Shown here: piece by piece, positions 25,574 to 34,214 of the stretch
How positions within the stretch are numbered: the stretch's first letter is position 1
How the letters are laid out: each line of letters opens with the position of its first letter
The notes under the pieces: model-generated
Seen by the model: the letters and a program-made list of their open reading frames with translations, nothing else
Told to the model about the DNA's origin: nothing
Databases searched by the model: none
Source of the DNA: Minisyncoccia bacterium
Lineage (GTDB): Bacteria > Patescibacteriota > Minisyncoccia > Phycocordibacterales > CAIZLB01
Reading direction: 5' to 3'
Assembly (NCBI GenBank): GCA_041752275.1
Contig: JBGSHK010000009.1
Location: forward strand, 19,156 to 83,155
Length of the DNA stretch: 64,000 nucleotides
Translations under genes and position numbers: made by a program

Positions 25574-26527
25574 TTAAACACCTTCATACATAAACTCATT
25601 TACCTCTTGCTCTTTTCCATATGTTTGTTGATGTGCCGTTCTGTACAATATGTATATAGAAACTATCTCTGCATAACTTGTAACCTGTTTTACCAGAGCC
25701 TGTCCATAGGCCTGTGTAAGATCACCTAGTGCTCGCCCAGCATTGCCAAGTCCCGGTATACCCATAGACACAGCTTTCAATCCTTCTGTCATAATCACTA
25801 CAAGTTGAGTTGTAATAGCATTTATTGAATCAACACCAATAGTTAATATAAGTGCCTTTTTAAAACCTTCACTTTTTGCAGTAACATTTAAAAGATTCAT
25901 TTTTTCATAAATAGAATTTATCTCAAGTTTTCCTCCTTTATACATATCTAAGAACACAAACCAAGAGAATCGCAGTTTTATACGAAGATAATAGTTGTAA
26001 ACAATAAAAGCAATAATAGAAGCGATCACAGTACCTAAGTATGAAAATAGAATTATATTTGAATCAAAATCAATATTGTTTGTTATAAGTAATATAGGTA
26101 CCGCAACAATTATAATCAAAAGGATTATTAGCGGAGTGAAATAATACTTAAAGAAAATATTAAATCTAAAAACTATAGCTGGCCACAAAAGTTTCTTAGC
26201 TAGTCCCCAACTTACCTTTCCACTTATTTCTTTTTTATCAAAGAATGAGTCAATCCAAATACGTTTTTCTATTTCAAAAATAAAACCAATGATGACCATA
26301 TAAATAATAGCAATAATAATATAAGCAAGAACATAAAGTATATTTGGAAAGGAGAATATAATTTGTTGTATATATTCTTCACCATAAAAACTATTGGCTC
26401 CGTATCCCAGAACAATAGCTAAAAGCACGGGCCATATGATCATGCCTGTGCGTAATAGAAGTAGTTTTTTACGGGCAATTATTTGCGCTCCTATTTCTTT
26501 GATTATTTCTTTGTATGTTGGTGTCAT
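25574..26527 (-). CDS. Hypothetical polytopic membrane protein
   Basis: 317 aa with multiple TM helices. Confidence 0.4.
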   Translation of the reverse strand: MTPTYKEIIKEIGAQIIARKKLLLLRTGMIIWPVLLAIVLGYGANSFYGEEYIQQIIFSFPNILYVLAYIIIAIIYMVIIGFIFEIEKRIWIDSFFDKKEISGKVSWGLAKKLLWPAIVFRFNIFFKYYFTPLIILLIIIVAVPILLITNNIDFDSNIILFSYLGTVIASIIAFIVYNYYLRIKLRFSWFVFLDMYKGGKLEINSIYEKMNLLNVTAKSEGFKKALILTIGVDSINAITTQLVVIMTEGLKAVSMGIPGLGNAGRALGDLTQAYGQALVKQVTSYAEIVSIYILYRTAHQQTYGKEQEVNEFMYEGV

Positions 26528-26540
26528 GTGTTTAGTATAG

Positions 26541-26578
26541 CAAAATAAAAATGCGTAACCTAGGTATTAGGTTACGCA
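26541..26578 (-). terminator. Strong intrinsic terminator
   Basis: TGCGTAACCTA-ggtat-TAGGTTACGCA (11-bp perfect stem) with a T-run on the minus strand. A second small hairpin GACGG..CCGTC lies at 26583-26597. Confidence 0.7.
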
Positions 26579-26605
26579 AATTGACGGACCAACCGTCATA
26601 ACTAA

Positions 26606-27352
26606 TTATTTTGCATCAGTAATCGCGAGGTCGATGACCTCGAGGTACTTATGGATGAGATCTTCACCACCTTCTTTGAAACGTCGCCCGGCGAACTTAG
26701 CGATATCTCGGTCGGGATAGTCTTTGAAAGCATCTTGCTCTATGTTTAGATTTTGATCTGGCTCCGCTAGTTCACCGGCCCTAATTCTATTTGCAATATC
26801 TTCAGCGGACAAGTTGTTTACTAACCAATTTTCGGCCAACTTCCAATTGTTTGAATCGTAGCCCAACAGCTCTGCCTCAAACCAAGTATTATAAACTTTT
26901 TGATGCTCTGGTTTAAGCATTGTCTCAAAACACATCTTGATGTTATAAAGAGTCTTTTTGAGACCATCCTTTTCCTCTTGGGTAAGTTTGGAAAACTCTT
27001 CTTTGAAGCGAGGTTGGATAATCAGATAAGTATCTTTCAGGTTTTCACCCGTAAAGAAGTATGATTTGATTCGGGCAATAATGATTGTACGACCTTGAAT
27101 GTAAGACTCCCAATCTTCCCAACTTAAATCCATTTTTTCATAGGTGGCAGAACGGGCTGAATGGTAGGCCTGATGACCTCCCGGTTCCATACCATATAAC
27201 TTTGCCGTCTTCCAAACCTCATCAAAAACATGTTCGGCAATAAAATCTTTGACAGAAAAGTTCAAGATTTTATCTATCAGCCTATCATCAATCTGAGCGG
27301 CGGATGCAGTTAAGGCGATTGTGGCAAAGGCGGCAATAAACAGTTTTTTCAT
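26606..27352 (-). CDS. Hypothetical secreted protein
   Basis: Signal peptide MKKLFIAAFATIALTASAA; non-AT-biased composition. Confidence 0.45.
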   Translation of the reverse strand: MKKLFIAAFATIALTASAAQIDDRLIDKILNFSVKDFIAEHVFDEVWKTAKLYGMEPGGHQAYHSARSATYEKMDLSWEDWESYIQGRTIIIARIKSYFFTGENLKDTYLIIQPRFKEEFSKLTQEEKDGLKKTLYNIKMCFETMLKPEHQKVYNTWFEAELLGYDSNNWKLAENWLVNNLSAEDIANRIRAGELAEPDQNLNIEQDAFKDYPDRDIAKFAGRRFKEGGEDLIHKYLEVIDLAITDAK

Positions 27353-27366
27353 GGTGGTGTTTATAG

Positions 27367-27400
27367 TTTTTGTTTTTGTTTTTGTTTTTGTTTTTTTGTT
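27367..27400. repeat. Microsatellite (TTTTTG)n
   Basis: Five tandem tttttg units in the intergenic region. Confidence 0.8.
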
Positions 27401-27460
27401 TGTATAATTTACTACCTATATATAATGTCATATATATAGTATAAAGTCAAGACAAGTTTT

Positions 27461-28396
27461 CTAAAACAACTCAAACAATTTTCCCATAAATAATGCATAT
27501 ATGATCAAATAAAATACAGCTTCTTGCATATGTATTTTCTTTGAAATACCGGAAAATGCAAACAATACAGTGGTCAATATCAAAACAGGTAAACCAATAG
27601 TCATAGTTTTAACATCAATAGAAAGATCTGAAAACAAAGCTGGTATACCAACTACCATCAAGATGTTAAAAATATTTGAACCAAAAATATTTCCCAAAGC
27701 AACTTCTGACTTCCCTGCTCGGGCCGCTTTTACGGAAACCAAGAGTTCAGGTAAAGATGTACCGACAGCAACTGCTGTTATTGAGATAATTGCTGGAGCT
27801 ATTTTTAATATATCTGAAATAGCTATAACTGCCTCTATGAGATAGTTTGCACTTACAGAAAGTAAAACAAGTCCTATTACAAGCCACATATAGTCTGCTC
27901 TTTTTGCTTTTTTCAGATTATTTAAACTATCATCTTTTTCATACACTTCTTTTGTGAAAATGGTAAACAAAACATAAGAGATGTATGCAGCAATAAGTAA
28001 TATACCTTCTATAAGAGTAATTTTTCCATCCAATGCTGTCATGTAAAAAAGAGCAGTTGAGGAAATCAACATTGGTATATCCAGATCAATTAGGTTTTTT
28101 GTAACAGTTAAGTTTTTAGCAACAAGTACCGATATACCAACTATTAAAAATATATTTGCAATGTTTGAACCGAGTGCGTTAGCTACCACTATCTCTGTAA
28201 CATTTCCAAAAACAGCAAATAGGGATGAGACTAGTTCAGGCATAGATGTACCAACTCCGACTATGGTTATACCGATAAGAAATGGTGACATTCCAAAAGA
28301 AAAACCTATTTTCTCAGCACTTTCCAGTAGCCAGTCGGCACTTTTAACTAGAAAGATAAGTGAGATGATGAATACTATAATCCAGATGATAAGCAT
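27461..28396 (-). CDS. Ca2+/cation antiporter (CaCA / YrbG family)
   Basis: Two alpha-repeat motifs: GNVTEIVVANALGSNIANIFLIVGI and ALGNIFGSNIFNILMVVGI. Confidence 0.85.
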   Translation of the reverse strand: MLIIWIIVFIISLIFLVKSADWLLESAEKIGFSFGMSPFLIGITIVGVGTSMPELVSSLFAVFGNVTEIVVANALGSNIANIFLIVGISVLVAKNLTVTKNLIDLDIPMLISSTALFYMTALDGKITLIEGILLIAAYISYVLFTIFTKEVYEKDDSLNNLKKAKRADYMWLVIGLVLLSVSANYLIEAVIAISDILKIAPAIISITAVAVGTSLPELLVSVKAARAGKSEVALGNIFGSNIFNILMVVGIPALFSDLSIDVKTMTIGLPVLILTTVLFAFSGISKKIHMQEAVFYLIIYALFMGKLFELF

Positions 28397-28442
28397 GAGG
28401 ATTATTGTAGCATAGGATAGTTAAAATGATATAATCATAAAT

Positions 28443-29084
28443 ATGAAATACTTCTTAATCATAGTTTTGTTGTTGATATCGTTGATTGGTATTTTCTTCT
28501 ATAACAAAAACGATGGAAAAATAAAAGAAACAAATCAACCTTTTAAAATAATAGCTTTTGGTGATTCTTTAACTGAGGGTTATGGAGTAAAACCAGAAGA
28601 AAGTTACCCTGCTATACTTGAAGTATATCTGAAAGAGGAAAATCCAAATATAGAAGTTGTAAACATGGGTTTATCAGGTGAAACAACTACAGAAGGACTG
28701 GCTAGAATAGATTCTGTTATATCTCAAAATCCTCAACTTGTACTTTTAGGACTCGGGGCGAACGACATGCTTCGCTCTACAGATACTGAGATAACTAAAG
28801 CAAATCTAGAAAAAATGATAATAACTTTTAAAGAGAATAATATCTTGGTTGTTCTTATGGGTGTGGAGGCTCAAATAAACAACAGTCCGAGTTTTAGAAA
28901 GAAGTTTAATGCAATATATAAAGATCTTGCAAAAAAACATGATGTAGCAATTGTTCCCTTCTTTTTGAAAAATGTTGTTTTAGTTAGATCTTTGAATGTA
29001 GATGGAATACATCCAAATGCTGAGGGTTATGAGAAAATAGTTGAGGAAAATGTTTTACCGGTGGTGAGGGATGTTTTGCGTTAA
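28443..29084 (+). CDS. SGNH/GDSL hydrolase (arylesterase/TesA-like)
   Basis: Block I IIAFGDSLTEGYG, a GxND block (GLGANDM) and a DGIHP block. Confidence 0.8.
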   Translation: MKYFLIIVLLLISLIGIFFYNKNDGKIKETNQPFKIIAFGDSLTEGYGVKPEESYPAILEVYLKEENPNIEVVNMGLSGETTTEGLARIDSVISQNPQLVLLGLGANDMLRSTDTEITKANLEKMIITFKENNILVVLMGVEAQINNSPSFRKKFNAIYKDLAKKHDVAIVPFFLKNVVLVRSLNVDGIHPNAEGYEKIVEENVLPVVRDVLR

Positions 29085-29087
29085 GGA

Positions 29088-29297
29088 TTACTTCAAACTA
29101 ATATTGTTTTTCTCAGCTATGTTTTTAATACTTCCACTTGATCGACCTAATGCAAGGCAAATGTCTTTCATAGGAGTTTTTAGTTTGACTAAGGCTTTGA
29201 GTTGTTTGATCTCGTCTGAAGTGTAGGGTTTACCGGAGTTTTCGATGTGGTTTTTTGTCATATACCAATATACTACCACCTTAACCCCACAACCCAA
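29088..29297 (-). CDS. Small hypothetical protein, possibly an HTH (likely starts at Met13, coordinate 29261)
   Basis: TSDEIKQLKALVKLKTPMKDICLALGRSSGSIKNIAEKN resembles a small helix-turn-helix. First ORF of the putative tRNA-adjacent island. Confidence 0.25.
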   Translation of the reverse strand: MGCGVKVVVYWYMTKNHIENSGKPYTSDEIKQLKALVKLKTPMKDICLALGRSSGSIKNIAEKNNISLK

Positions 29298-29709
29298 ACC
29301 TCTTCGTCACCGCATCAACCTCCTCTGTTGGACCATATAACAAACACCCTAGATATTTAAAATCCCCTGTTTCCTTCAAAAACATAGAATCATGAAGTTC
29401 ATCATCATGTCTTGTATCAAGCATTTCTTGAGGAAAATCTATAAGTACAATATCTTTATTATCTTTTACTGTATTGATCAGTTTAGATATATCATCACCA
29501 TTTCCTTGTTTAATAATAAAACCAAATCTTGCAATACCTTTATGATTGAAACCAGATTTGTCAGTTAATATTTCTCGACCCATCAAGTCTTCATCTTTAT
29601 TTACACCAAGAGATACAGACATATGACCTAGGACGTTGAGTGATTGCCAAGTCGGGATGTTTGAGTCGATAATGGCGATAATTTTCTTTTGTTTGTAGTT
29701 GTAGGGCAT
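29281..29709 (-). CDS. Hypothetical protein
   Basis: 142-aa ORF with no confident motif. Confidence 0.35.
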   Translation of the reverse strand: MPYNYKQKKIIAIIDSNIPTWQSLNVLGHMSVSLGVNKDEDLMGREILTDKSGFNHKGIARFGFIIKQGNGDDISKLINTVKDNKDIVLIDFPQEMLDTRHDDELHDSMFLKETGDFKYLGCLLYGPTEEVDAVTKRFGLWG

Positions 29710-29718
29710 GGATAAAAG

Positions 29719-30090
29719 TTAATTTAAATATAATAAGGTAATTAATGAAATTATAAGTATCGTAGGTATATAAACAAAAGGATTATCCATAGAAAACCAT
29801 TTTTTCTTAGAAATAGACCCTTGAATAATTTTTGTTTTTTCATTTACTAAATCTCCTCTAATTTGTGTAGACATAACAGAATCTTCACTTAAATGAATTT
29901 CACTGCCTTTCATTGTCATATCTCCACCAACTTCAAAATATAACCCAGGTTTGTATCCTAATTTTTGATATCTTAATCCAAGTTCTGTTTGAGCTTTCTG
30001 AAAACGACTTCCTGGTGTATTAGGATTTTCATGAAGTCTTATAATAGCTTCCAGTTCATCGTTATTCATTTTTGAAATATCTTCATTCAT
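29719..30090 (-). CDS. Hypothetical protein with C-terminal TM anchor
   Basis: 123 aa with a C-terminal hydrophobic tail IPTILIISLITLLYL. Confidence 0.35.
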   Translation of the reverse strand: MNEDISKMNNDELEAIIRLHENPNTPGSRFQKAQTELGLRYQKLGYKPGLYFEVGGDMTMKGSEIHLSEDSVMSTQIRGDLVNEKTKIIQGSISKKKWFSMDNPFVYIPTILIISLITLLYLN

Positions 30091-30100
30091 ATTATTTTGA

Positions 30101-30120
30101 TTTTCGGTTTATTTTCGGTT
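30101..30120 (+). promoter_or_regulatory. Direct repeat TTTTCGGTT x2 upstream of the LexA-MTase fusion gene (candidate operator)
   Basis: gaTTTTCGGTTtaTTTTCGGTTatac lies about 40 bp upstream of the start codon. Confidence 0.25.
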
Positions 30121-30158
30121 ATACTTAAATTATAGCAAAAATAAATATTATCGCAAAT

Positions 30159-31724
30159 ATGTCAAATCTTACAAAAAAACAAAAAGAAACTTTCGACTAT
30201 ATAACTAAGTATATAGATAAAAATAGTGTATCCCCTACTATGGAAGAGATTAAGAAAGGTCTTAAACTCAGTGCTGTTTCTACCGTACATGAACACATTC
30301 AATCCCTCAAGGAAAAAGGTTTTCTTTCTAAGACCAAAAGTCTTTCACCTAAAAAAGAAATAAAATCCATACTGAGCATTCCTATCATAGGTACCATAGC
30401 AGCTGGTTATCCAATTGAAGCTATAGAAAATGGCACTGATAATGTTTCAGTTGTAAACAGCTCTATAAAAAATCCAAAAGATTATTATGCCCTTAAAGTT
30501 ACTGGAGAAAGTATGATTGATGAAGGTATATTTGATGGAGATATAGTAGTGATAAAAAAACAATCTGTTGCTGAAAACGGTCAAACTGTTGTAGCTATTA
30601 TAGATAATAACGAAGCAACTCTTAAAAAGATATATAGAGATAAAAACAGATTTCGCCTTGAACCCAGAAATCAAACAATGCTTCCGTTTTATAGAAAAGA
30701 AGTTGAGATAAGAGGTGTAGTTGTTCAAGTTATAAGAAATATAAATCAAGAGGAAAAGAAGATTACAAAAACTAAAACAAAACATGGTTTTGATACCATA
30801 GACTTATTTGCAGGAGTTGGTGGTATACGTTTAGGTTTCGAAAATGCTGGGTTTAAAACAGTATTTGCAAATGATTTTGAAGCTAAATGTAAAGACACAT
30901 ACGATTTAAACTTTAAAGATTCAAAACTTGTAGTAGAAGATATTAGAAAAGTTGGAATAGATGATTTACCAAATTTTGATTTCTTGCTAGGAGGCTTCCC
31001 TTGCCAGGCATTTTCTATAGCTGGTCATAGACAAGGCTTCAAGGATGAGAAGGGTCGTGGTAACCTGTTTTTTGACGTTGCGAGAATTATAGAAGCAAGA
31101 AAACCAGAAGGATTTTTATTAGAAAATGTTAAAAATCTTAAAAGCCATGACGAAGGTAGAACATTTAAAATAATCATTAAAACTCTTGAAGATCTTGGAT
31201 ATCATATAAAATCAAAAGTTTTAAATAGTATGGAATATGGAAACATTCCACAAAACAGAGAGCGTATATATATTGTCGGTTTTAAAAATAAAGATTATTA
31301 TGACAAATTTGAATTCCCTGCTCCTGTAAAATTAACAGTTAAGATTACAGATTTATTAGAAAAGAATGTTGATCAAAAATATTATTATAATGACAAACCT
31401 TTATATGAAAGAATAAAGGATTCTGTAAAAGACATAGGAAAAGTATATCAGTGGCGTAGACAATACGTAAGAGAAAACAAAAGTGGAGTATGCCCTACAT
31501 TAACAGCCAATATGGGTATGGGTGGACACAATGTTCCAATAATAAAAGATAAGAAGGGTATACGAAAATTAACACCAACTGAATGTGCAAGGATACAAGG
31601 TTTTCCTATTGATTATAAGTTACCTAAGATAGCTGATTCTGCGTTGTATAAGCAGTTTGGAAACTCAGTGAGCGTGCCTGTTATTAAAGCTGTTGCTAAG
31701 CAGATGATGAAGGTGATGAACTAG
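30159..31724 (+). CDS. Fusion protein: full-length LexA-like repressor (wHTH plus S24 autopeptidase) fused in frame to a C5 cytosine DNA methyltransferase
   Basis: N-terminus LTKKQKETFDYITKYIDKNSVSPTMEEIKKGLKLSAVSTVHEHIQSLKEKGFL matches the LexA DNA-binding domain. The LexA protease catalytic region is present: GESMIDEGIFDGDIVVI...NGQTVVAIIDNNEATLKKIYR (Ser in GESM, Lys in TLKK) ending ...VIRNI. A Lys/Thr-rich linker NQEEKKITKTKTK follows. MTase motifs are then I DLFAGVGG, IV GFPCQAFS, VI LLENVKNL and X QFGNSVSVPV. Confidence 0.8.
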   Translation: MSNLTKKQKETFDYITKYIDKNSVSPTMEEIKKGLKLSAVSTVHEHIQSLKEKGFLSKTKSLSPKKEIKSILSIPIIGTIAAGYPIEAIENGTDNVSVVNSSIKNPKDYYALKVTGESMIDEGIFDGDIVVIKKQSVAENGQTVVAIIDNNEATLKKIYRDKNRFRLEPRNQTMLPFYRKEVEIRGVVVQVIRNINQEEKKITKTKTKHGFDTIDLFAGVGGIRLGFENAGFKTVFANDFEAKCKDTYDLNFKDSKLVVEDIRKVGIDDLPNFDFLLGGFPCQAFSIAGHRQGFKDEKGRGNLFFDVARIIEARKPEGFLLENVKNLKSHDEGRTFKIIIKTLEDLGYHIKSKVLNSMEYGNIPQNRERIYIVGFKNKDYYDKFEFPAPVKLTVKITDLLEKNVDQKYYYNDKPLYERIKDSVKDIGKVYQWRRQYVRENKSGVCPTLTANMGMGGHNVPIIKDKKGIRKLTPTECARIQGFPIDYKLPKIADSALYKQFGNSVSVPVIKAVAKQMMKVMN

Positions 31725-31726
31725 AA

Positions 31727-32296
31727 TTACCAAAGCTTAACTTTTGAAGCTAGTGGTTTTATATTATGTTTTATTATTATATCTTTTTTTATAGAAAATC
31801 TAGGTCTTCTTTTATCACCTTGCTGATCTTTCATTGCTTGTGATTTATTAACTTTATTTCCATAAATTAAATCATTTGGTATTAAATAAATATCAAATTT
31901 ACCATCAACTTTACCTTCGTTATAAAAATCAAGAAAATATAAATCATCCCATTTAGATTTTGGGCCAAATGAAGTTAAATCTTCTTCTACGCTACAAGCT
32001 TTTATTTGCTCAGCTCTCATTTTTTTAACATTAACTGTATCAAATGAAGTATTTGATAACTTTTTAGCTTTTAAAAGTCTAGCTGATGAACCTTCAGACC
32101 ATATACAAAAAGCTGCTTCTGATAAACCTTCGGGAAAATTAGGTTCTCTGGCTTTATAATCTCTCATACCCATTTTTAAATCTCTCCATTTATCAAACAT
32201 AAACTTCCAGGTTTTACCATCAGATTTTATAAACTCCATAACACTTAAAACACAGTCTTGGTTAAATATTTTAGCTTCTATTGTGTTTATTCGCAT
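31727..32296 (-). CDS. Putative type II restriction endonuclease partner of the adjacent methyltransferase
   Basis: 189-aa ORF tail-to-tail with the MTase, stops 3 bp apart. Possible PD-(D/E)xK-like segment WDDLYFLDFYNEGK. Assignment is by context only. Confidence 0.3.
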   Translation of the reverse strand: MRINTIEAKIFNQDCVLSVMEFIKSDGKTWKFMFDKWRDLKMGMRDYKAREPNFPEGLSEAAFCIWSEGSSARLLKAKKLSNTSFDTVNVKKMRAEQIKACSVEEDLTSFGPKSKWDDLYFLDFYNEGKVDGKFDIYLIPNDLIYGNKVNKSQAMKDQQGDKRRPRFSIKKDIIIKHNIKPLASKVKLW

Positions 32297-32338
32297 ATAA
32301 AAAATATATTACCACAATATAGAATTTTTACACATTTA

Positions 32339-33364
32339 TTAAAATTCCCCTGAAACTGTTTTAGTATTAGGCATATATATACTCAACCTATCCTCTTCGT
32401 TAAATAAATCAAATAAAAAGTTCAACATATCACTTACGCCCTTAAACGCTTTCATTGCTTCTTTATATGAATATTTTATATTTTTACCGTGTGCAACATC
32501 GTTTCTATACTCTCTTGAAAAATTAGACCAGTTATTATATTTTTGTTTAAAATCATTATTATTATCAATATTGATAGTAAACTCCTCTTTTATGATATTC
32601 CTAAGAAAAGAAGTTATACTAAGAGGGTACCCTTTTTTGTCTTCAAACTTTTTATCAATTTTATCAGAAGATAAACCTTTATTTTCAAAATATTTTCTAA
32701 TCATTTGAGCATATTTTGCCTCAAATAAAATCTCGATTAATAAAATAGCAATATTGTAATCTTCGGTCATTAAGTATCTAGAAGCAGAGAAAGAAAGAGT
32801 TTGTAAATCATCTACTTTATTTTCATTTAAAATTAACTTTCTTAATAGTTCATCCTTTTCTTTGTCAATATTTGACCCTAATCCCTTTCCTGTACCCAGA
32901 GTTCCTTGAGTAAAAGGGTCTTGATTACCCTCCTGATCAATACCTATAAAAGTAAAATGTGCTACGTGCGCATCTGTTAATGGAAATATCCAAAATGAAC
33001 CCATCACCAAGGCATAATTTTTAACAAATTGATTAAAGGCTTTTAAGGTAAATTCTTTTATTATTTCTATATTATTTCTAAAGTTTTCAATATTATATTT
33101 ATTTATAAATTGACTATCAAACCATATCTGAATAATACTATTATTTAATCTACCAAACATATCTTCAGTTGCAATCATGACACCACCCAAGTCTTTTAAT
33201 TTCTTTTCAGATCTAATCATCACATGAATATCTTCTATTAAAAATACATAATCTTTATATTCGCCAGTGACAGACTCTTTCTTCATTGAATCAGGTAACA
33301 TAAGAACATAAGGGATTTCAAATTGAACTATTATATTTTTTAGACCTATTTGAGCGCACGACAT
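32339..33364 (-). CDS. Hypothetical protein (island cargo adjacent to tRNA)
   Basis: 341-aa ORF whose annotated start overlaps the tRNA 3' end by 2 nt; no recognisable motif. Confidence 0.4.
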   Translation of the reverse strand: MSCAQIGLKNIIVQFEIPYVLMLPDSMKKESVTGEYKDYVFLIEDIHVMIRSEKKLKDLGGVMIATEDMFGRLNNSIIQIWFDSQFINKYNIENFRNNIEIIKEFTLKAFNQFVKNYALVMGSFWIFPLTDAHVAHFTFIGIDQEGNQDPFTQGTLGTGKGLGSNIDKEKDELLRKLILNENKVDDLQTLSFSASRYLMTEDYNIAILLIEILFEAKYAQMIRKYFENKGLSSDKIDKKFEDKKGYPLSITSFLRNIIKEEFTINIDNNNDFKQKYNNWSNFSREYRNDVAHGKNIKYSYKEAMKAFKGVSDMLNFLFDLFNEEDRLSIYMPNTKTVSGEF

Positions 33365-33437
33365 GGTGACCTCACGGAGAATCGAACTCCGATTAACAGA
33401 TTGAGAACCTGTTGTCCTAACCGTTAGACGATGAGGC
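33363..33437 (-). tRNA. tRNA-Glu (anticodon CTC)
   Basis: Minus-strand sequence GGCCTCATCGTCTAACGGTTAGGACAACAGGTTCTCAATCTGTTAATCGGAGTTCGATTCTCCGTGAGGTCACCA folds as a cloverleaf with acceptor GGCCTCA/TGAGGTC, T-arm CGGAG-TTCGATT-CTCCG, anticodon loop TTCTCAA and encoded CCA. Confidence 0.7.
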
Positions 33438-33524
33438 CATACAAAGAATATATCACAAGATTAACAATAAAAAAAGCGCATCAACCCGACAAGGTCAACA
33501 CACTCTATTTTTCGAATCAATCCA

Positions 33525-34214
33525 CTATTTCAACAAAAACCGGAGCGTCGACACAACCCTTATCTTCTTAAACTCAGGGGACCCTGGATCTTTCTCTGAT
33601 ATATCAAACACACCCTGATTCCCTCTTGTCACAGCACCCAAAGAGGCCCCTGACTCTGTAGCAAAGTTTCTAGCTGTATCTTTTGCATTTTTAATACTTT
33701 CACTAAGCATCTCTGGCTTCACACTGTTTATATCTGAAAACTCAAAGTTTATAGAGTTCCCACTTAAAGTCACACCTCTTTTAACCAAAGCTAAAGTTTC
33801 TTTTGAGGTAGACTTAACTAGATCAACTTTGTTTGTATAAACAGACATTTGATTTGTAGAGTTATATCTAAAAGCGGCATCTCTATATGTATCTTGATAA
33901 ATATTTATCGGTGCTATATTTATCTCACTTTCTTCAAAACCTTTTTCTTTTAAGAAATTTTTAATAGTTGTAGTATTACGCTCTATATCAGCATATAAAC
34001 TATCGATATCATTTGACTTAATATCAAAGTTTAGATTCCAGATAGCAACATCAGCTTTAACTATTTTTTCTGACAATCCTTTCACTTCTACATAAGCACC
34101 TTGATCAGAAAATGATCTGGCCGAGATGAGAAATATTAAAGAAAATATCAAGACGGCTGCGGCTGCTATTATTCCTATTTGTAATGTAGTGTTGTTTTTG
34201 ATTTTTTCTAACAT
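33525..34214 (-). CDS. SIMPL/DUF541 (BP26-like) periplasmic protein
   Basis: N-terminal TM anchor, then a region typical of the SIMPL domain (VKADVAIWNLNFDIKSND...VSTLRFLLK); 229 aa. Confidence 0.55.
   Translation of the reverse strand: MLEKIKNNTTLQIGIIAAAAVLIFSLIFLISARSFSDQGAYVEVKGLSEKIVKADVAIWNLNFDIKSNDIDSLYADIERNTTTIKNFLKEKGFEESEINIAPINIYQDTYRDAAFRYNSTNQMSVYTNKVDLVKSTSKETLALVKRGVTLSGNSINFEFSDINSVKPEMLSESIKNAKDTARNFATESGASLGAVTRGNQGVFDISEKDPGSPEFKKIRVVSTLRFLLK

What the first reader, a model, noticed from the sequence alone, without database searches (positions are those of the whole stretch)
29088..33437. tRNA-Glu-adjacent island encoding a LexA::C5-methyltransferase fusion convergent with a putative restriction enzyme
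ORF 30159..31724 reads as a complete LexA followed in the same frame by a complete Dcm-type m5C methyltransferase. The LexA part has the DNA-binding domain LTKKQKETFDYI...VHEHIQSLKEKGFL and the S24 autopeptidase with Ser in GESM and Lys in TLKK. A Lys/Thr-rich linker (NQEEKKITKTKTK) joins it to the MTase, whose motifs are FAGVGG, PCQAFS, ENV and QFGNSVSVPV. A 189-aa ORF (31727..32296) ends 3 bp away in convergent orientation, as in type II R-M systems. A further unknown 341-aa ORF abuts the 3' end of a tRNA-Glu (33363..33437), the classical integration site for genomic islands. Inference: RecA-stimulated self-cleavage of the LexA module would detach the DNA-binding domain from the methyltransferase, coupling methylation or restriction control to the SOS response. 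MTases with short N-terminal HTH autoregulators are known; fusion to a full cleavable LexA is not something I recognise as described. A direct repeat TTTTCGGTT x2 (30101-30120) upstream is a candidate operator.
Basis: partly seen in the sequence, partly recalled or inferred. Interest (0 to 1): 0.85.

Follow-up and report, generated by a model that had tools for sequence, protein, structure and literature searches.

The report
LexA-fused methyltransferase restriction-modification cassette
A small restriction-modification module has its protective DNA methyltransferase fused to a complete, apparently self-cleaving LexA repressor; the fusion recurs in many ultra-small (CPR/Patescibacteria) bacteria and probably ties self-protection to the DNA-damage signal, an arrangement I could not find described.

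Summary
ORF 30159..31724 encodes one 521-aa protein made of a LexA DNA-binding domain, an S24 autopeptidase, a disordered linker and an M.HhaI-like m5C methyltransferase. It is convergent, 2 bp apart, with a Bsp6I-family restriction endonuclease.

It is not an artefact. 159 distinct full-length versions (66-97% identity) occur across many CPR lineages. Gly83, Ser118, Lys156 and Cys282 are invariant; Ala82 is in 157/159.

TTCGG-N6-TTCGG fills the 17-nt spacer of a conserved sigma70-like promoter. It occurs 72 times in 1.17 Mb, and every instance is at or beside a LexA-MTase gene start.

Promoter, fusion and nuclease move as a ~2.15-kb cassette. The methyltransferase's recognition domain is constant, but the convergent partner has been swapped among at least 8 unrelated families.

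Best explanation: an autorepressed "dual-function MTase repressor", as in SsoII/EcoRII, in which the repressor is a cleavable LexA. RecA-stimulated cleavage would then derepress the methyltransferase. The identity of the parts and the conserved promoter are shown. Binding to the repeat and the SOS coupling are inferred.

The parts
30097..30102 (+). -35 hexamer TTGATT of the fusion-gene promoter
   Evidence: Sequence and promoter scan. The position is conserved as GCTTTG / TTGAyT across 59 non-redundant loci.
30103..30120 (+). Putative LexA operator: direct repeat TTCGGTT (30103-30109) and TTCGGTT (30114-30120), 11-bp period. It fills the 17-nt promoter spacer and overlaps the first base of the -10.
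   Evidence: 55 of 59 non-redundant upstream regions have exact TTCGG-N6-TTCGG, with per-base conservation of about 0.9 or more. There are 72 occurrences in 1.17 Mb against 0-7 at other spacings, all at or beside a LexA-MTase gene start. The same box is found with a LexA::N6_N4-MTase fusion (L012) and with stand-alone LexAs (L094, L095). It is the only exact match in the 64-kb window.
30120..30125 (+). -10 hexamer TATACT
   Evidence: The hexamer in this position is TATAAT in 41 and TATACT in 10 of 74 motif instances.
30159..31724 (+). LexA::m5C-methyltransferase fusion gene (521 aa). LexA wHTH is aa 1-59 (30159-30335). The Ala82-Gly83 cleavage site is at 30402-30407. S24 is aa 75-189 (30381-30725), with Ser118 at 30510-30512 and Lys156 at 30624-30626. 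The linker is aa 196-210 (30744-30788). The MTase is aa 211-521 (30789-31721), with catalytic Cys282 at 31002-31004.
31727..32296 (-). Bsp6I-family Type II restriction endonuclease (189 aa), tail-to-tail with the fusion gene with a 2-bp gap
   Evidence: Pfam RE_Bsp6I 2.4e-11. PADLOC REase_II 3.1e-23. It is 59-67% identical to the partners in L006 and L009. DNA homology to those loci covers 30096/30102..32234/32239. Natural Bsp6I::MTase fusions exist (P0357, P0343).
32339..33364 (-). 341-aa orphan ORF: strain-specific cargo between the cassette and the tRNA, not part of the conserved cassette. It carries an R-NDVA-H (Rx4H, HEPN-like) motif.
   Evidence: The only database hit is itself. Only a faint HEPN_Swt1 match, 0.074. 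No PADLOC hit. Replaced by other genes in the 97%-identical relative L001.
33364..33438 (-). tRNA-Glu(CTC), with its 3' end facing the cassette. This is where synteny with the sister strain resumes.
   Evidence: ARAGORN, blastn against L001, and the family-level tRNA census.

Best explanation
This is a mobile Type II restriction-modification cassette of CPR/Patescibacteria bacteria, made of a promoter, a LexA::m5C-methyltransferase gene and a convergent Bsp6I-type endonuclease gene. The probable target is GCNGC. The methyltransferase is of the 'dual-function MTase repressor' kind, but its repressor module is a full LexA. Proposed mechanism: the LexA module, dimerised through its S24 domains, binds the two TTCGG repeats inside the -35/-10 spacer and blocks RNA polymerase, so methyltransferase synthesis limits itself. 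DNA breaks or single-stranded DNA (from damage, repair synthesis, or cutting of under-methylated host DNA by the cassette's own endonuclease) produce RecA filaments. These stimulate Ser118/Lys156 self-cleavage at Ala82-Gly83. The DNA-binding domain is detached, the promoter is derepressed, and a burst of methyltransferase re-protects the genome. Because no terminator separates the convergent genes, read-through may also give transcription antisense to the endonuclease gene. The outcome would be a Type II counterpart of damage-induced restriction alleviation. What is shown: the architecture, intact catalytic and cleavage residues, the conserved promoter, mobility of the cassette, and the R-M context. 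What is inferred: LexA binding to the repeat, RecA-dependent cleavage, the protective direction of the response, and the GCNGC target.
For: The domains are complete and individually above curated cutoffs. The LexA module aligns end to end with solved LexA structures, with the cleavage site and dyad aligned. The MTase is closest to M.HhaI (1e-61). In 159 distinct sequences, Gly83, Ser118, Lys156, Cys282 and Glu322 are 159/159 and Ala82 is 157/159, while the linker drifts. The AlphaFold model has three folded modules and a disordered linker at 197-207. The operator lies in the promoter spacer, is conserved above background, and all 72 instances in 1.17 Mb are at or beside a LexA-MTase gene start. 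The box follows the LexA module whatever is fused or downstream (L012, L094, L095). The recognition helix differs in the one LexA that has a different repeat. Direct-repeat LexA boxes of 11-bp period are an established type (GTTC-N7-GTTC, PMC8565304). All 64 loci with room have a tail-to-tail convergent gene, and in 62 it falls into one of 8 families. Four of those families (40 loci) have REase or nuclease profile support: Bsp6I, PDDEXK_5, a NgoFVII-like family (PADLOC 3.5e-102), and a weak REase_II match. C-protein-like HTH genes precede the partner in 17 of 64 loci. No terminator-like site was found between or within the two genes. Fused MTase-repressors and damage-induced restriction alleviation are both established concepts (PMC12707154).
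Against: No biochemical evidence exists for DNA binding, cleavage or methylation specificity. LexA-family proteins keep their catalytic residues by default, so conservation alone does not prove that cleavage is used in this context. The fate of the S24-MTase fragment is unknown; in E. coli (from my own recollection of the literature) LexA fragments are degraded by ClpXP or Lon, which could lower rather than raise MTase activity. The window's cassette lacks the C-protein found in 17 of 64 relatives, so control of the endonuclease here is unexplained. GCNGC is not avoided in the window (65 sites against 47.6 expected). I could not examine a complete genome for a second lexA or for more boxes.
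Confidence: 0.55

Rival explanations
1. SsoII-like autoregulation only. The LexA module is used purely as a dimeric DNA-binding autorepressor that caps methyltransferase expression during establishment and maintenance. Self-cleavage is a retained ancestral property with no role in the R-M system.
For: The operator sits in the gene's own promoter and no other targets were found. Known fused MTase-repressors work without any protease (PMC12707154 section 11; PMC3978073). Many cassettes also carry a C protein for the REase side.
Against: The Ala-Gly site and the Ser/Lys dyad are essentially invariant in 159 sequences that diverge to 66% identity. A ~70-aa HTH suffices in known systems, so keeping a 120-aa active protease is unexplained. 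LexA modules are also fused or linked to other MTase classes (PF01555, PF02086, Eco57I-type), which suggests the whole LexA is what is selected.
Confidence: 0.2
2. The fusion is the organism's general SOS repressor. It is the cell's (only) LexA and controls a DNA-repair regulon, with a methyltransferase attached as a passenger or for damage-coupled epigenetic marking.
For: It scores above the curated cutoff of the LexA equivalog model. It is 50-58% identical to ordinary ~200-aa CPR LexAs. NCBI names many copies 'transcriptional repressor LexA'. No second lexA is present in the 64-kb window.
Against: Promoter, gene and REase move as a 2.15-kb unit into unrelated chromosomal contexts. The protein is 66-81% identical across many different named CPR lineages, which fits horizontal spread. 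No additional boxes were found in 1.17 Mb of flanking DNA. Of four close stand-alone relatives examined, L011 and L095 head methyltransferase operons, L094 precedes an unannotated gene, and L101 sits on an inovirus-like contig.
Confidence: 0.12
3. Damage- or infection-triggered suicide. RecA-stimulated cleavage destabilises the methyltransferase, methylation lapses, and the endonuclease kills the cell. This would be an abortive-infection or addiction function.
For: Cleavage creates a new C-terminus ending ...IAA, resembling the ClpX-recognised end of cleaved E. coli LexA (from my own recollection of the literature). R-M systems are known to cause post-segregational killing (PMC11324026, listed).
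Against: Every bout of DNA damage would be lethal, which is hard to reconcile with persistence in hundreds of small genomes. Cleavage simultaneously derepresses synthesis of new fusion protein. Existing methylation persists for at least a generation.
Confidence: 0.1
4. Artefact: a sequencing or assembly frameshift has joined two separate genes, lexA and dcm.
For: None beyond the general possibility in metagenome assemblies.
Against: 159 distinct full-length sequences from many independent assemblies and sources share the same junction. A second assembly of the same organism agrees. There is no Met or start signal at the beginning of the MTase domain.
Confidence: 0.01

Closest known systems
Dual-function MTase repressors of Type II R-M systems (M.SsoII, M.Ecl18kI, M.EcoRII; PMC12707154 section 11, PMC3978073)
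   Same: An m5C methyltransferase carries an N-terminal DNA-binding module joined by a flexible linker. That module binds a regulatory site in the gene's own promoter region and represses MTase transcription.
   Different: In the known cases the module is a ~70-residue HTH region with no protease and no link to a cellular signal. SsoII and Ecl18kI also control a divergent REase promoter. Here the module is a 200-residue complete LexA with an intact autopeptidase and cleavage site, and the genes are convergent, so the operator cannot act directly on the REase promoter.
Canonical LexA repressor (E. coli 1JHH/3JSO, T. maritima 3K2Z)
   Same: It has the same two domains, hinge Ala-Gly site and Ser/Lys dyad over its full length. 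It exceeds the NCBIfam equivalog cutoff. It has a box in its own promoter.
   Different: It is covalently fused to an enzyme and travels on a mobile R-M cassette. No regulon beyond its own promoter was detected in the DNA available.
Direct-repeat LexA boxes (GTTC-N7-GTTC, Alphaproteobacteria; cited in PMC8565304)
   Same: Two direct half-sites with an 11-bp period. In about a third of loci the second half-site reads GTTCGG, so it contains GTTC at that period.
   Different: The core is TTCGG, and the base before the first repeat is usually T. Binding has not been tested. The organisms are CPR bacteria, not Alphaproteobacteria.
C-protein-controlled R-M systems (e.g. PvuII; PMC2175313, PMC12707154 section 13)
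   Same: 17 of 64 related cassettes have a small HTH_3 gene immediately upstream of the REase gene.
   Different: The window's own cassette has no C gene. The C protein governs the REase side, whereas the LexA module governs the MTase side.
Bsp6I (GCNGC) and NgoFVII (GCSGC) R-M systems (specificities recalled from Pfam/REBASE, not tested here)
   Same: The window's REase matches Pfam RE_Bsp6I. Another partner family matches NgoFVII_C and a PADLOC REase_II model at 3.5e-102. The MTase's recognition domain is invariant across partners.
   Different: The specificity of this MTase is not determined. The classical systems have stand-alone MTases.
Damage-induced restriction alleviation of Type I systems (ClpXP degradation of HsdR; PMC12707154 section 25)
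   Same: The proposed outcome is the same: after DNA damage the balance shifts from restriction towards modification, to protect newly made unmodified DNA.
   Different: The mechanism is entirely different: host proteolysis of the nuclease subunit versus self-cleavage of a repressor fused to the methyltransferase. The review's restriction-alleviation passages that I read concern Type I systems.

Membership tests
LexA repressor (TIGR00498 / PF01726 + PF00717) | N-terminal winged-HTH LexA DNA-binding domain | tested here: met
   PF01726 5.9e-13 at residues 1-59. Full-length alignment to solved LexAs. Helices at 6-22, 28-34 and 40-52 in the model.
LexA repressor (TIGR00498 / PF01726 + PF00717) | S24 domain with Ser/Lys dyad and a hinge Ala-Gly cleavage site | tested here: met
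   PF00717 3.9e-29. Ser118, Lys156 and Gly83 are 159/159 and Ala82 is 157/159. They align with E. coli S119, K156 and A84-G85.
LexA repressor (TIGR00498 / PF01726 + PF00717) | RecA-stimulated self-cleavage | not testable with these tools
   Requires biochemistry. Only the catalytic apparatus is shown to be intact.
LexA repressor (TIGR00498 / PF01726 + PF00717) | Box in its own promoter (autoregulation) | tested here: met
   A conserved TTCGG-N6-TTCGG lies in the promoter spacer in 55 of 59 loci. Actual binding was not tested.
LexA repressor (TIGR00498 / PF01726 + PF00717) | Controls a multi-gene SOS regulon (recA, uvr, translesion polymerases) | tested here: inconclusive
   No further boxes in the window or in 1.17 Mb of related loci. 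However, only one uvrA and no CPR recA lay in that DNA. The metagenome pattern scan was uninformative.
LexA repressor (TIGR00498 / PF01726 + PF00717) | Stand-alone protein of about 200 residues | tested here: not met
   The protein is 521 aa with a C-terminal methyltransferase in the same frame.
Type II restriction-modification system | C5-cytosine MTase with catalytic PCQ Cys, ENV and the AdoMet motif | tested here: met
   PF00145 3.1e-95 and TIGR00675 352 bits. M.HhaI 1e-61. Motif residues are 159/159.
Type II restriction-modification system | Adjacent cognate restriction endonuclease gene | tested here: met
   RE_Bsp6I 2.4e-11 and PADLOC REase_II 3.1e-23. The pair is conserved in 21 loci. 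Bsp6I::MTase fusions exist elsewhere.
Type II restriction-modification system | Matching recognition sequence of MTase and REase; nuclease activity | not testable with these tools
   GCNGC is inferred only from the family names of two partner families.
Dual-function MTase repressors (SsoII / Ecl18kI / EcoRII type) | MTase fused N-terminally to a DNA-binding transcription-factor module through a flexible linker | tested here: met
   (linker 197-207 has pLDDT below 50). The concept is in PMC12707154 section 11.
Dual-function MTase repressors (SsoII / Ecl18kI / EcoRII type) | The module is a short HTH region homologous to the SsoII/EcoRII N-terminal regions | tested here: not met
   The module is LexA plus S24 by Pfam and NCBIfam. 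No other HTH family passes threshold.
Dual-function MTase repressors (SsoII / Ecl18kI / EcoRII type) | The regulatory site also governs a divergent or overlapping REase promoter (SsoII/Ecl18kI subtype) | tested here: not met
   The genes are convergent. No box lies near the REase or C-gene start in any locus.
tRNA-integrated genomic island | Integrase or recombinase gene within the island | tested here: not met
   None among the called ORFs between 29088 and 33438. One relative, L009, has a serine recombinase overlapping a tRNA-Glu.
tRNA-integrated genomic island | Direct repeat of the tRNA 3' end at the far boundary | tested here: not met
   No repeat family involving 33364-33438 within 26000-33600.
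tRNA-integrated genomic island | Compositional deviation from the flanks | tested here: not met
   GC is 0.28-0.36 throughout 24-40 kb.
tRNA-integrated genomic island | Lies next to the 3' end of a tRNA gene; strain-variable content | tested here: met
   (content differs from L001 between 31724 and 33365); 17 of 44 loci have a tRNA whose 3' end faces the REase side.

The most novel reading that the evidence does not exclude
CPR bacteria harbour a large, horizontally spreading class of Type II R-M systems in which a dedicated clade of LexA has been recruited as an SOS-sensing controller. This LexA is either stand-alone at the head of an MTase operon or fused to m5C, N4/N6 or Dam-type MTases. 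DNA damage or self-restriction would cleave the repressor and raise methylation. That would be the first damage-responsive 'restriction alleviation' circuit for Type II systems and the first case of LexA covalently coupled to an enzyme it regulates. The constant LexA-MTase also serves as an anchor next to which unrelated isospecific nucleases are repeatedly exchanged. A positionally fixed DnaA-box-like element suggests an additional input from replication.
Probability: 0.4. Interest if true: 0.85.

Novelty: new variant of a known kind. Interest (0 to 1): 0.72.

Why it matters
R-M systems must keep methylation ahead of restriction. The control devices I am aware of are C proteins, short HTH extensions on the MTase, antisense RNAs and promoter methylation, and all of these sense only the system's own components. 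A methyltransferase fused to an intact LexA would add a cellular signal, RecA filaments, which mark DNA breaks. That gives a directly testable mechanism by which a Type II system could sense and correct its own autoimmunity or protect repair-synthesised DNA. It also affects annotation and regulon work in CPR/Patescibacteria. Many proteins named 'LexA' there are R-M components with a private operator, and they should not be read as evidence of a classical SOS regulon. The repeated exchange of unrelated nucleases beside one invariant methyltransferase is a clean natural data set on how REases are replaced. It is also a source of candidate new isoschizomers, probably of GCNGC.

Tried and rejected
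(1) Frameshift or assembly artefact: rejected by recurrence.

(2) att-site duplication of the tRNA-Glu 3' end: not found. There is no GC break.

(3) Phage origin: no full-length fusion in IMG/VR, only MTase-only or LexA-only relatives. One LexA-only relative sits on an inovirus-like contig.

(4) Global regulon: the box is unique in the window. A PWM scan of 1.17 Mb found nothing beyond own promoters. But almost no SOS genes were in that DNA.

The rest were high-GC coding sequence or TTCGG-rich simple repeats. Follow-up of 12 low-GC hits gave no coherent downstream genes. This was uninformative.

(6) 341-aa ORF: no homologues other than itself. No PADLOC or Pfam family passes threshold. I therefore did not attempt a structure.

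(7) Partner families f360, f278, f345 and f315: no Pfam or PADLOC match. Calling them REases rests on position and, for f360, on C-protein linkage. Structure prediction of these was not possible because locus-derived proteins cannot be submitted.

(8) GCNGC avoidance in the window: not seen, 65 against 47.6 expected.

(9) Literature: ten searches found no description. Sanchez-Osuna, Barbe and Erill 2017 (Environ Microbiol 19:3465, Patescibacteria SOS network) could not be opened and may report the motif or the fusion.

(10) The sigma70 scan by itself is not significant in this AT-rich DNA, 24 against 20 expected. The promoter call rests on cross-species conservation.

Full report
**1. The observation**

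The ORF at 30159..31724 (+) is uninterrupted and encodes 521 aa. Pfam places LexA_DNA_bind at residues 1-59, Peptidase_S24 at 75-189 and DNA_methylase at 211-517, all far above their gathering scores. NCBIfam's LexA equivalog model scores 164 bits against a cutoff of 111, and the dcm model scores 352 bits.

The LexA part aligns over its whole length with solved LexA structures: T. maritima 3K2Z at 1.3e-29 and E. coli 1JHH/3JSO at about 1e-24. Its IAAG, GESM and TLKK lie opposite the E. coli Ala84-Gly85 cleavage site, Ser119 and Lys156. The MTase part is closest to M.HhaI among solved structures (1e-61, full length).

An AlphaFold model (mean pLDDT 79) shows a winged HTH (6-52), an S24 beta-barrel (72-192) and the MTase (212-520). 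They are joined by a disordered linker at 197-207 with pLDDT below 50. The pTM of 0.56 fits independently folded modules.

The 189-aa ORF 31727..32296 (-) ends 2 bp from the fusion's stop. It matches Pfam RE_Bsp6I (2.4e-11) and a PADLOC Type II REase model (3.1e-23). tRNA-Glu(CTC) is at 33364..33438 on the minus strand.

**2. Not an artefact, and not rare**

A search of 5.8 billion proteins returned at least 120 clusters of about 525 aa with all three Pfam domains, at 77-97% identity. Every copy that carries a name comes from a CPR/Patescibacteria lineage.

The best 80 are full-length fusions at 66-81% identity. They come from genomes labelled Paceibacterota, Giovannoni-, Vogel-, Zambryskii-, Nomura-, Taylor-, Uhr-, Moran-, Shapiro-, Staskawicz-, Magasanik- and Nealsonbacteria, among others. 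A few short contigs carry other taxonomic labels, which I take to be mis-binning.

In a library clustered at 50% identity the family collapses to essentially one representative. A second assembly of the window's own organism has the same gene order.

Across 159 distinct sequences, Gly83, Ser118, Lys156, the catalytic Cys282 and the ENV Glu322 are invariant, and Ala82 is present in 157 of 159. Only the Lys/Glu/Thr-rich linker is variable.

**3. The promoter and operator**

Upstream regions from loci with unrelated upstream genes share one architecture. From 59 non-redundant loci the consensus is tgtGgatAA-nntn-GCTTTG-an-TTTCGGTTT-nTn-TTCGGT-TATAAT-na-AATTGTAGCg.

In the window the elements are:
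- the -35 TTGATT at 30097-30102;
- the repeats TTCGGTT at 30103-30109 and 30114-30120;
- the -10 TATACT at 30120-30125.

The repeats exactly fill a 17-nt spacer. The repeat bases are conserved at about 0.9 or more, clearly above the 72-75% nucleotide identity of the cassette as a whole.

Exact TTCGG-N6-TTCGG occurs 72 times in the 1.17 Mb I held, against 0-7 for spacings of 2-5 and 7-11. Of these, 70 lie just upstream of a LexA-Dcm fusion gene on its own strand. One is at the L012 LexA-N6/N4 fusion promoter. One, in L068, lies near the fusion start but on the opposite strand. None is at another gene. A weight-matrix scan added only background-level matches. In the window the only exact match is this promoter.

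The box follows the LexA module rather than the enzyme:
- A LexA::N6_N4-MTase fusion (L012) has TTGCAT-gTTCGGtaaatgTTCGG-TATAAT.
- The stand-alone LexA P0230 (L095) has the box in reverse orientation just after its promoter.
- P0161 (L094) has TTCGG-N6-TTTGG overlapping TTATAAT.
- The one LexA with a different 11-bp-period repeat (ATTTTCTAT x2, L011) also has a different recognition helix, STAHFHIS instead of STI/VHE/QHI.

Direct-repeat LexA boxes of this period are an accepted class (GTTC-N7-GTTC in Alphaproteobacteria; PMC8565304). In about a third of loci the second half-site reads GTTCGG.

I conclude, by inference from position and co-occurrence, that the LexA module binds this repeat and occludes its own promoter.

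**4. The R-M context and mobility**

DNA homology between the window and the distant loci L006 and L009 covers exactly 30096/30102..32234/32239. That span is the promoter, the fusion gene and the Bsp6I-like gene, at 72-75% identity. The chromosomal surroundings of the cassette differ from genome to genome. So this is a mobile two-gene cassette of about 2.15 kb.

All 64 loci with enough sequence have a convergent gene whose stop lies within 250 bp of the fusion's stop. In 62 of them it lies within about 20 bp, with one exception at 66 bp. These 62 fall into eight mutually unrelated families:

| Partner family | Loci | Support as a nuclease |
|---|---|---|
| Bsp6I-like (includes the window) | 21 | Pfam RE_Bsp6I, PADLOC REase_II |
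| ~360 aa | 10 | none; C-protein gene upstream in 4 |
| PDDEXK_5 | 8 | Pfam PD-(D/E)XK endonuclease |
| ~383 aa | 6 | PADLOC REase_II 3.5e-102, Pfam NgoFVII_C |
| ~278 aa | 5 | none |
| ~277 aa | 5 | weak PADLOC REase_II, 3.7e-06 |
| ~345 aa | 4 | none |
| ~315 aa | 3 | none |

A C-protein-like HTH_3 gene lies immediately upstream of the partner in 17 of 64 loci, spread over five families.

The MTase's target-recognition region is identical in seven MTases paired with five different partner families. Partner type is uncorrelated with MTase phylogeny. Nearest neighbours share a partner family in 9 of 38 cases, against about 20% by chance, and MTases that are 96.6% identical can have unrelated partners. 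The window itself shows this. Its 97%-identical relative L001 shares only 30094..31723 and then the tRNA-Glu and everything beyond. Between those points L001 has three different ORFs where the window has the Bsp6I-like gene and a 341-aa orphan.

From my recollection of Pfam and REBASE, Bsp6I recognises GCNGC and NgoFVII recognises GCSGC, so the target is probably GCNGC. Natural Bsp6I::m5C-MTase fusions (P0357, P0343) independently link this MTase clade with that nuclease family.

**5. A wider LexA-R-M association**

The nearest relatives of the LexA module (50-78% identity) include ordinary ~200-aa CPR LexAs. They also include LexA fused to PF01555 (N4/N6) and PF02086 (Dam-type) MTases, and a 777-aa LexA-S24-Dcm-Eco57I-type protein.

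I examined four stand-alone relatives:
- One heads an operon of LexA, an N6_N4 MTase and a HinfI-family REase (L011).
- One overlaps by 4 nt with an N6_Mtase/Eco57I gene inside a defence island (L095).
- One precedes an unannotated 344-aa gene (L094).
- One is on an inovirus-like contig (L101).

No full-length fusion is present in IMG/VR.

**6. Mechanism**

Shown: the domain composition, intact catalytic and cleavage residues under long-term conservation, a conserved private box in the promoter spacer, the convergent R gene, and cassette mobility.

Inferred: (i) the LexA dimer binds the box and represses MTase transcription; (ii) RecA filaments stimulate cleavage at Ala82-Gly83, which separates the DNA-binding domain from the S24-MTase fragment; (iii) the result is derepression and more methyltransferase. 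Read-through into the convergent REase gene is also possible, because the 2-bp gap leaves no room for a terminator and none was detected inside either gene.

This would make the system homeostatic. Breaks caused by under-methylation or by repair synthesis would raise methylation. That is the functional equivalent of the damage-induced restriction alleviation described for Type I systems (PMC12707154).

The rivals are these:
- Autoregulation only, with cleavage irrelevant.
- A global SOS repressor that happens to carry an MTase.
- Damage-triggered loss of MTase leading to suicide.

They are weighed in the structured sections of this report. The main gap is that I could not inspect any whole genome for a second lexA or for further boxes. 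The flanking DNA I held contained almost no SOS genes, and the metagenome pattern scan was swamped by chance matches.

**7. Comparison with what is known, and novelty**

The nearest established category is the 'dual function MTase repressors' (Ecl18kI, SsoII, EcoRII) in the 2025 EcoSal Plus review. In those, a ~70-residue N-terminal region regulates transcription (PMC3978073). The present protein works like these in being a fused autorepressor. It fails membership in two respects: the module is a LexA with an S24 protease, and the genes are convergent.

It meets the structural definition of LexA. It is not a stand-alone protein, and it shows no regulon in the DNA sampled.

That review never mentions LexA, and ten full-text searches found no description of a LexA-MTase fusion or of LexA control of a Type II system.

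I therefore rate it a new variant of a known kind. It is well supported as an object, with a plausible but untested signal-coupling mechanism.

**8. The 'island'**

The window has no integrase, no duplication of the tRNA 3' end and no compositional break. 18 of 44 loci have a tRNA gene within 5 kb on the REase side (Glu 8, Ser 5, Gln 4, Asn 1), and 17 of those 18 have their 3' end facing the cassette. Only 4 of 47 loci have a tRNA on the promoter side. In L009 a large serine recombinase gene overlaps a tRNA-Glu(CTC) next to the cassette.

Noticed in passing
L007, L008, L011, L013-L092 promoters (absent from window 30060-30096): A perfect DnaA-box complement, TGTGGATAA(C), sits at a fixed distance upstream of the operator: 19-24 nt, mode 22. 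It is exact in 38 of 59 non-redundant promoters and within one mismatch in 47 of 59. Of 81 copies of the 9-mer in 1.19 Mb, 45 are at this position; permuted 9-mers average 12 copies in total. This may be a replication-coupled input or another regulator's site. The window and L001 lack it.
   Followed up: partly
L001-L092, region immediately 3' of the fusion gene; window 31727-33363: One methyltransferase with an invariant recognition domain is paired with at least 8 unrelated convergent genes. The partner family is uncorrelated with MTase phylogeny, and even 96.6-97% identical MTases have different partners. This looks like frequent exchange of isospecific nucleases beside a fixed anchor gene.
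   Followed up: yes
P0169, P0179, P0184, P0188, P0190 (L012), P0203, P0204, P0213, P0220, P0223, P0360: LexA+S24 modules are also fused to N4/N6 (PF01555) and Dam-type (PF02086) MTases, and to a Dcm+Eco57I double MTase. Stand-alone LexAs head MTase operons in L011 and L095.
   Followed up: partly
P0357 (539 aa), P0343 (567 aa): These are natural single-chain fusions of a Bsp6I-family endonuclease domain to an m5C MTase 44-46% identical to the window's MTase domain.
   Followed up: no
window 32339-33364 (-): A 341-aa ORF with no homologue other than itself in 5.8 billion proteins. It has an R-NDVA-H (Rx4H) motif near the C-terminus and a faint HEPN_Swt1 match (0.074). Its annotated ATG overlaps the last base of tRNA-Glu, so the true start is probably further in, for example MKKESV.
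   Followed up: partly
L009 7209-8860: A large serine recombinase gene (Resolvase/Recombinase/Zn_ribbon_recom) overlaps the 3' end of a tRNA-Glu(CTC) right beside the cassette and a ThsB-TIR gene. L010 has the same cassette without the recombinase, in a different right flank. This is a candidate integrative element carrying the cassette.
   Followed up: partly
window 30129-30174 (-): Two good sigma70-like matches on the minus strand overlap the fusion gene's 5' leader and point towards the divergent 123-aa orphan ORF (29719-30090): TTGACA-16-TATTTT, and TTGCGA-16-TATAAT with an upstream TG. This raises the possibility of divergent promoter interference specific to this strain.
   Followed up: no
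window 32297-32338: The 42-bp gap before the REase start contains TGTGGTAATAT, an extended -10-like TGnTAATAT about 10 nt upstream of the ATG. There is no C-protein gene here, unlike 17 of 64 related cassettes. How the nuclease is expressed in this strain is unexplained.
   Followed up: no
window 26522-26611 and 29205-29261 versus L001 1-141: On the promoter side too, the sister strain L001 differs. Its first 141 bases match two window segments 2.6 kb apart, and the genes between them and the cassette are different. The conserved LexA-MTase gene is thus flanked on both sides by strain-variable DNA.
   Followed up: no
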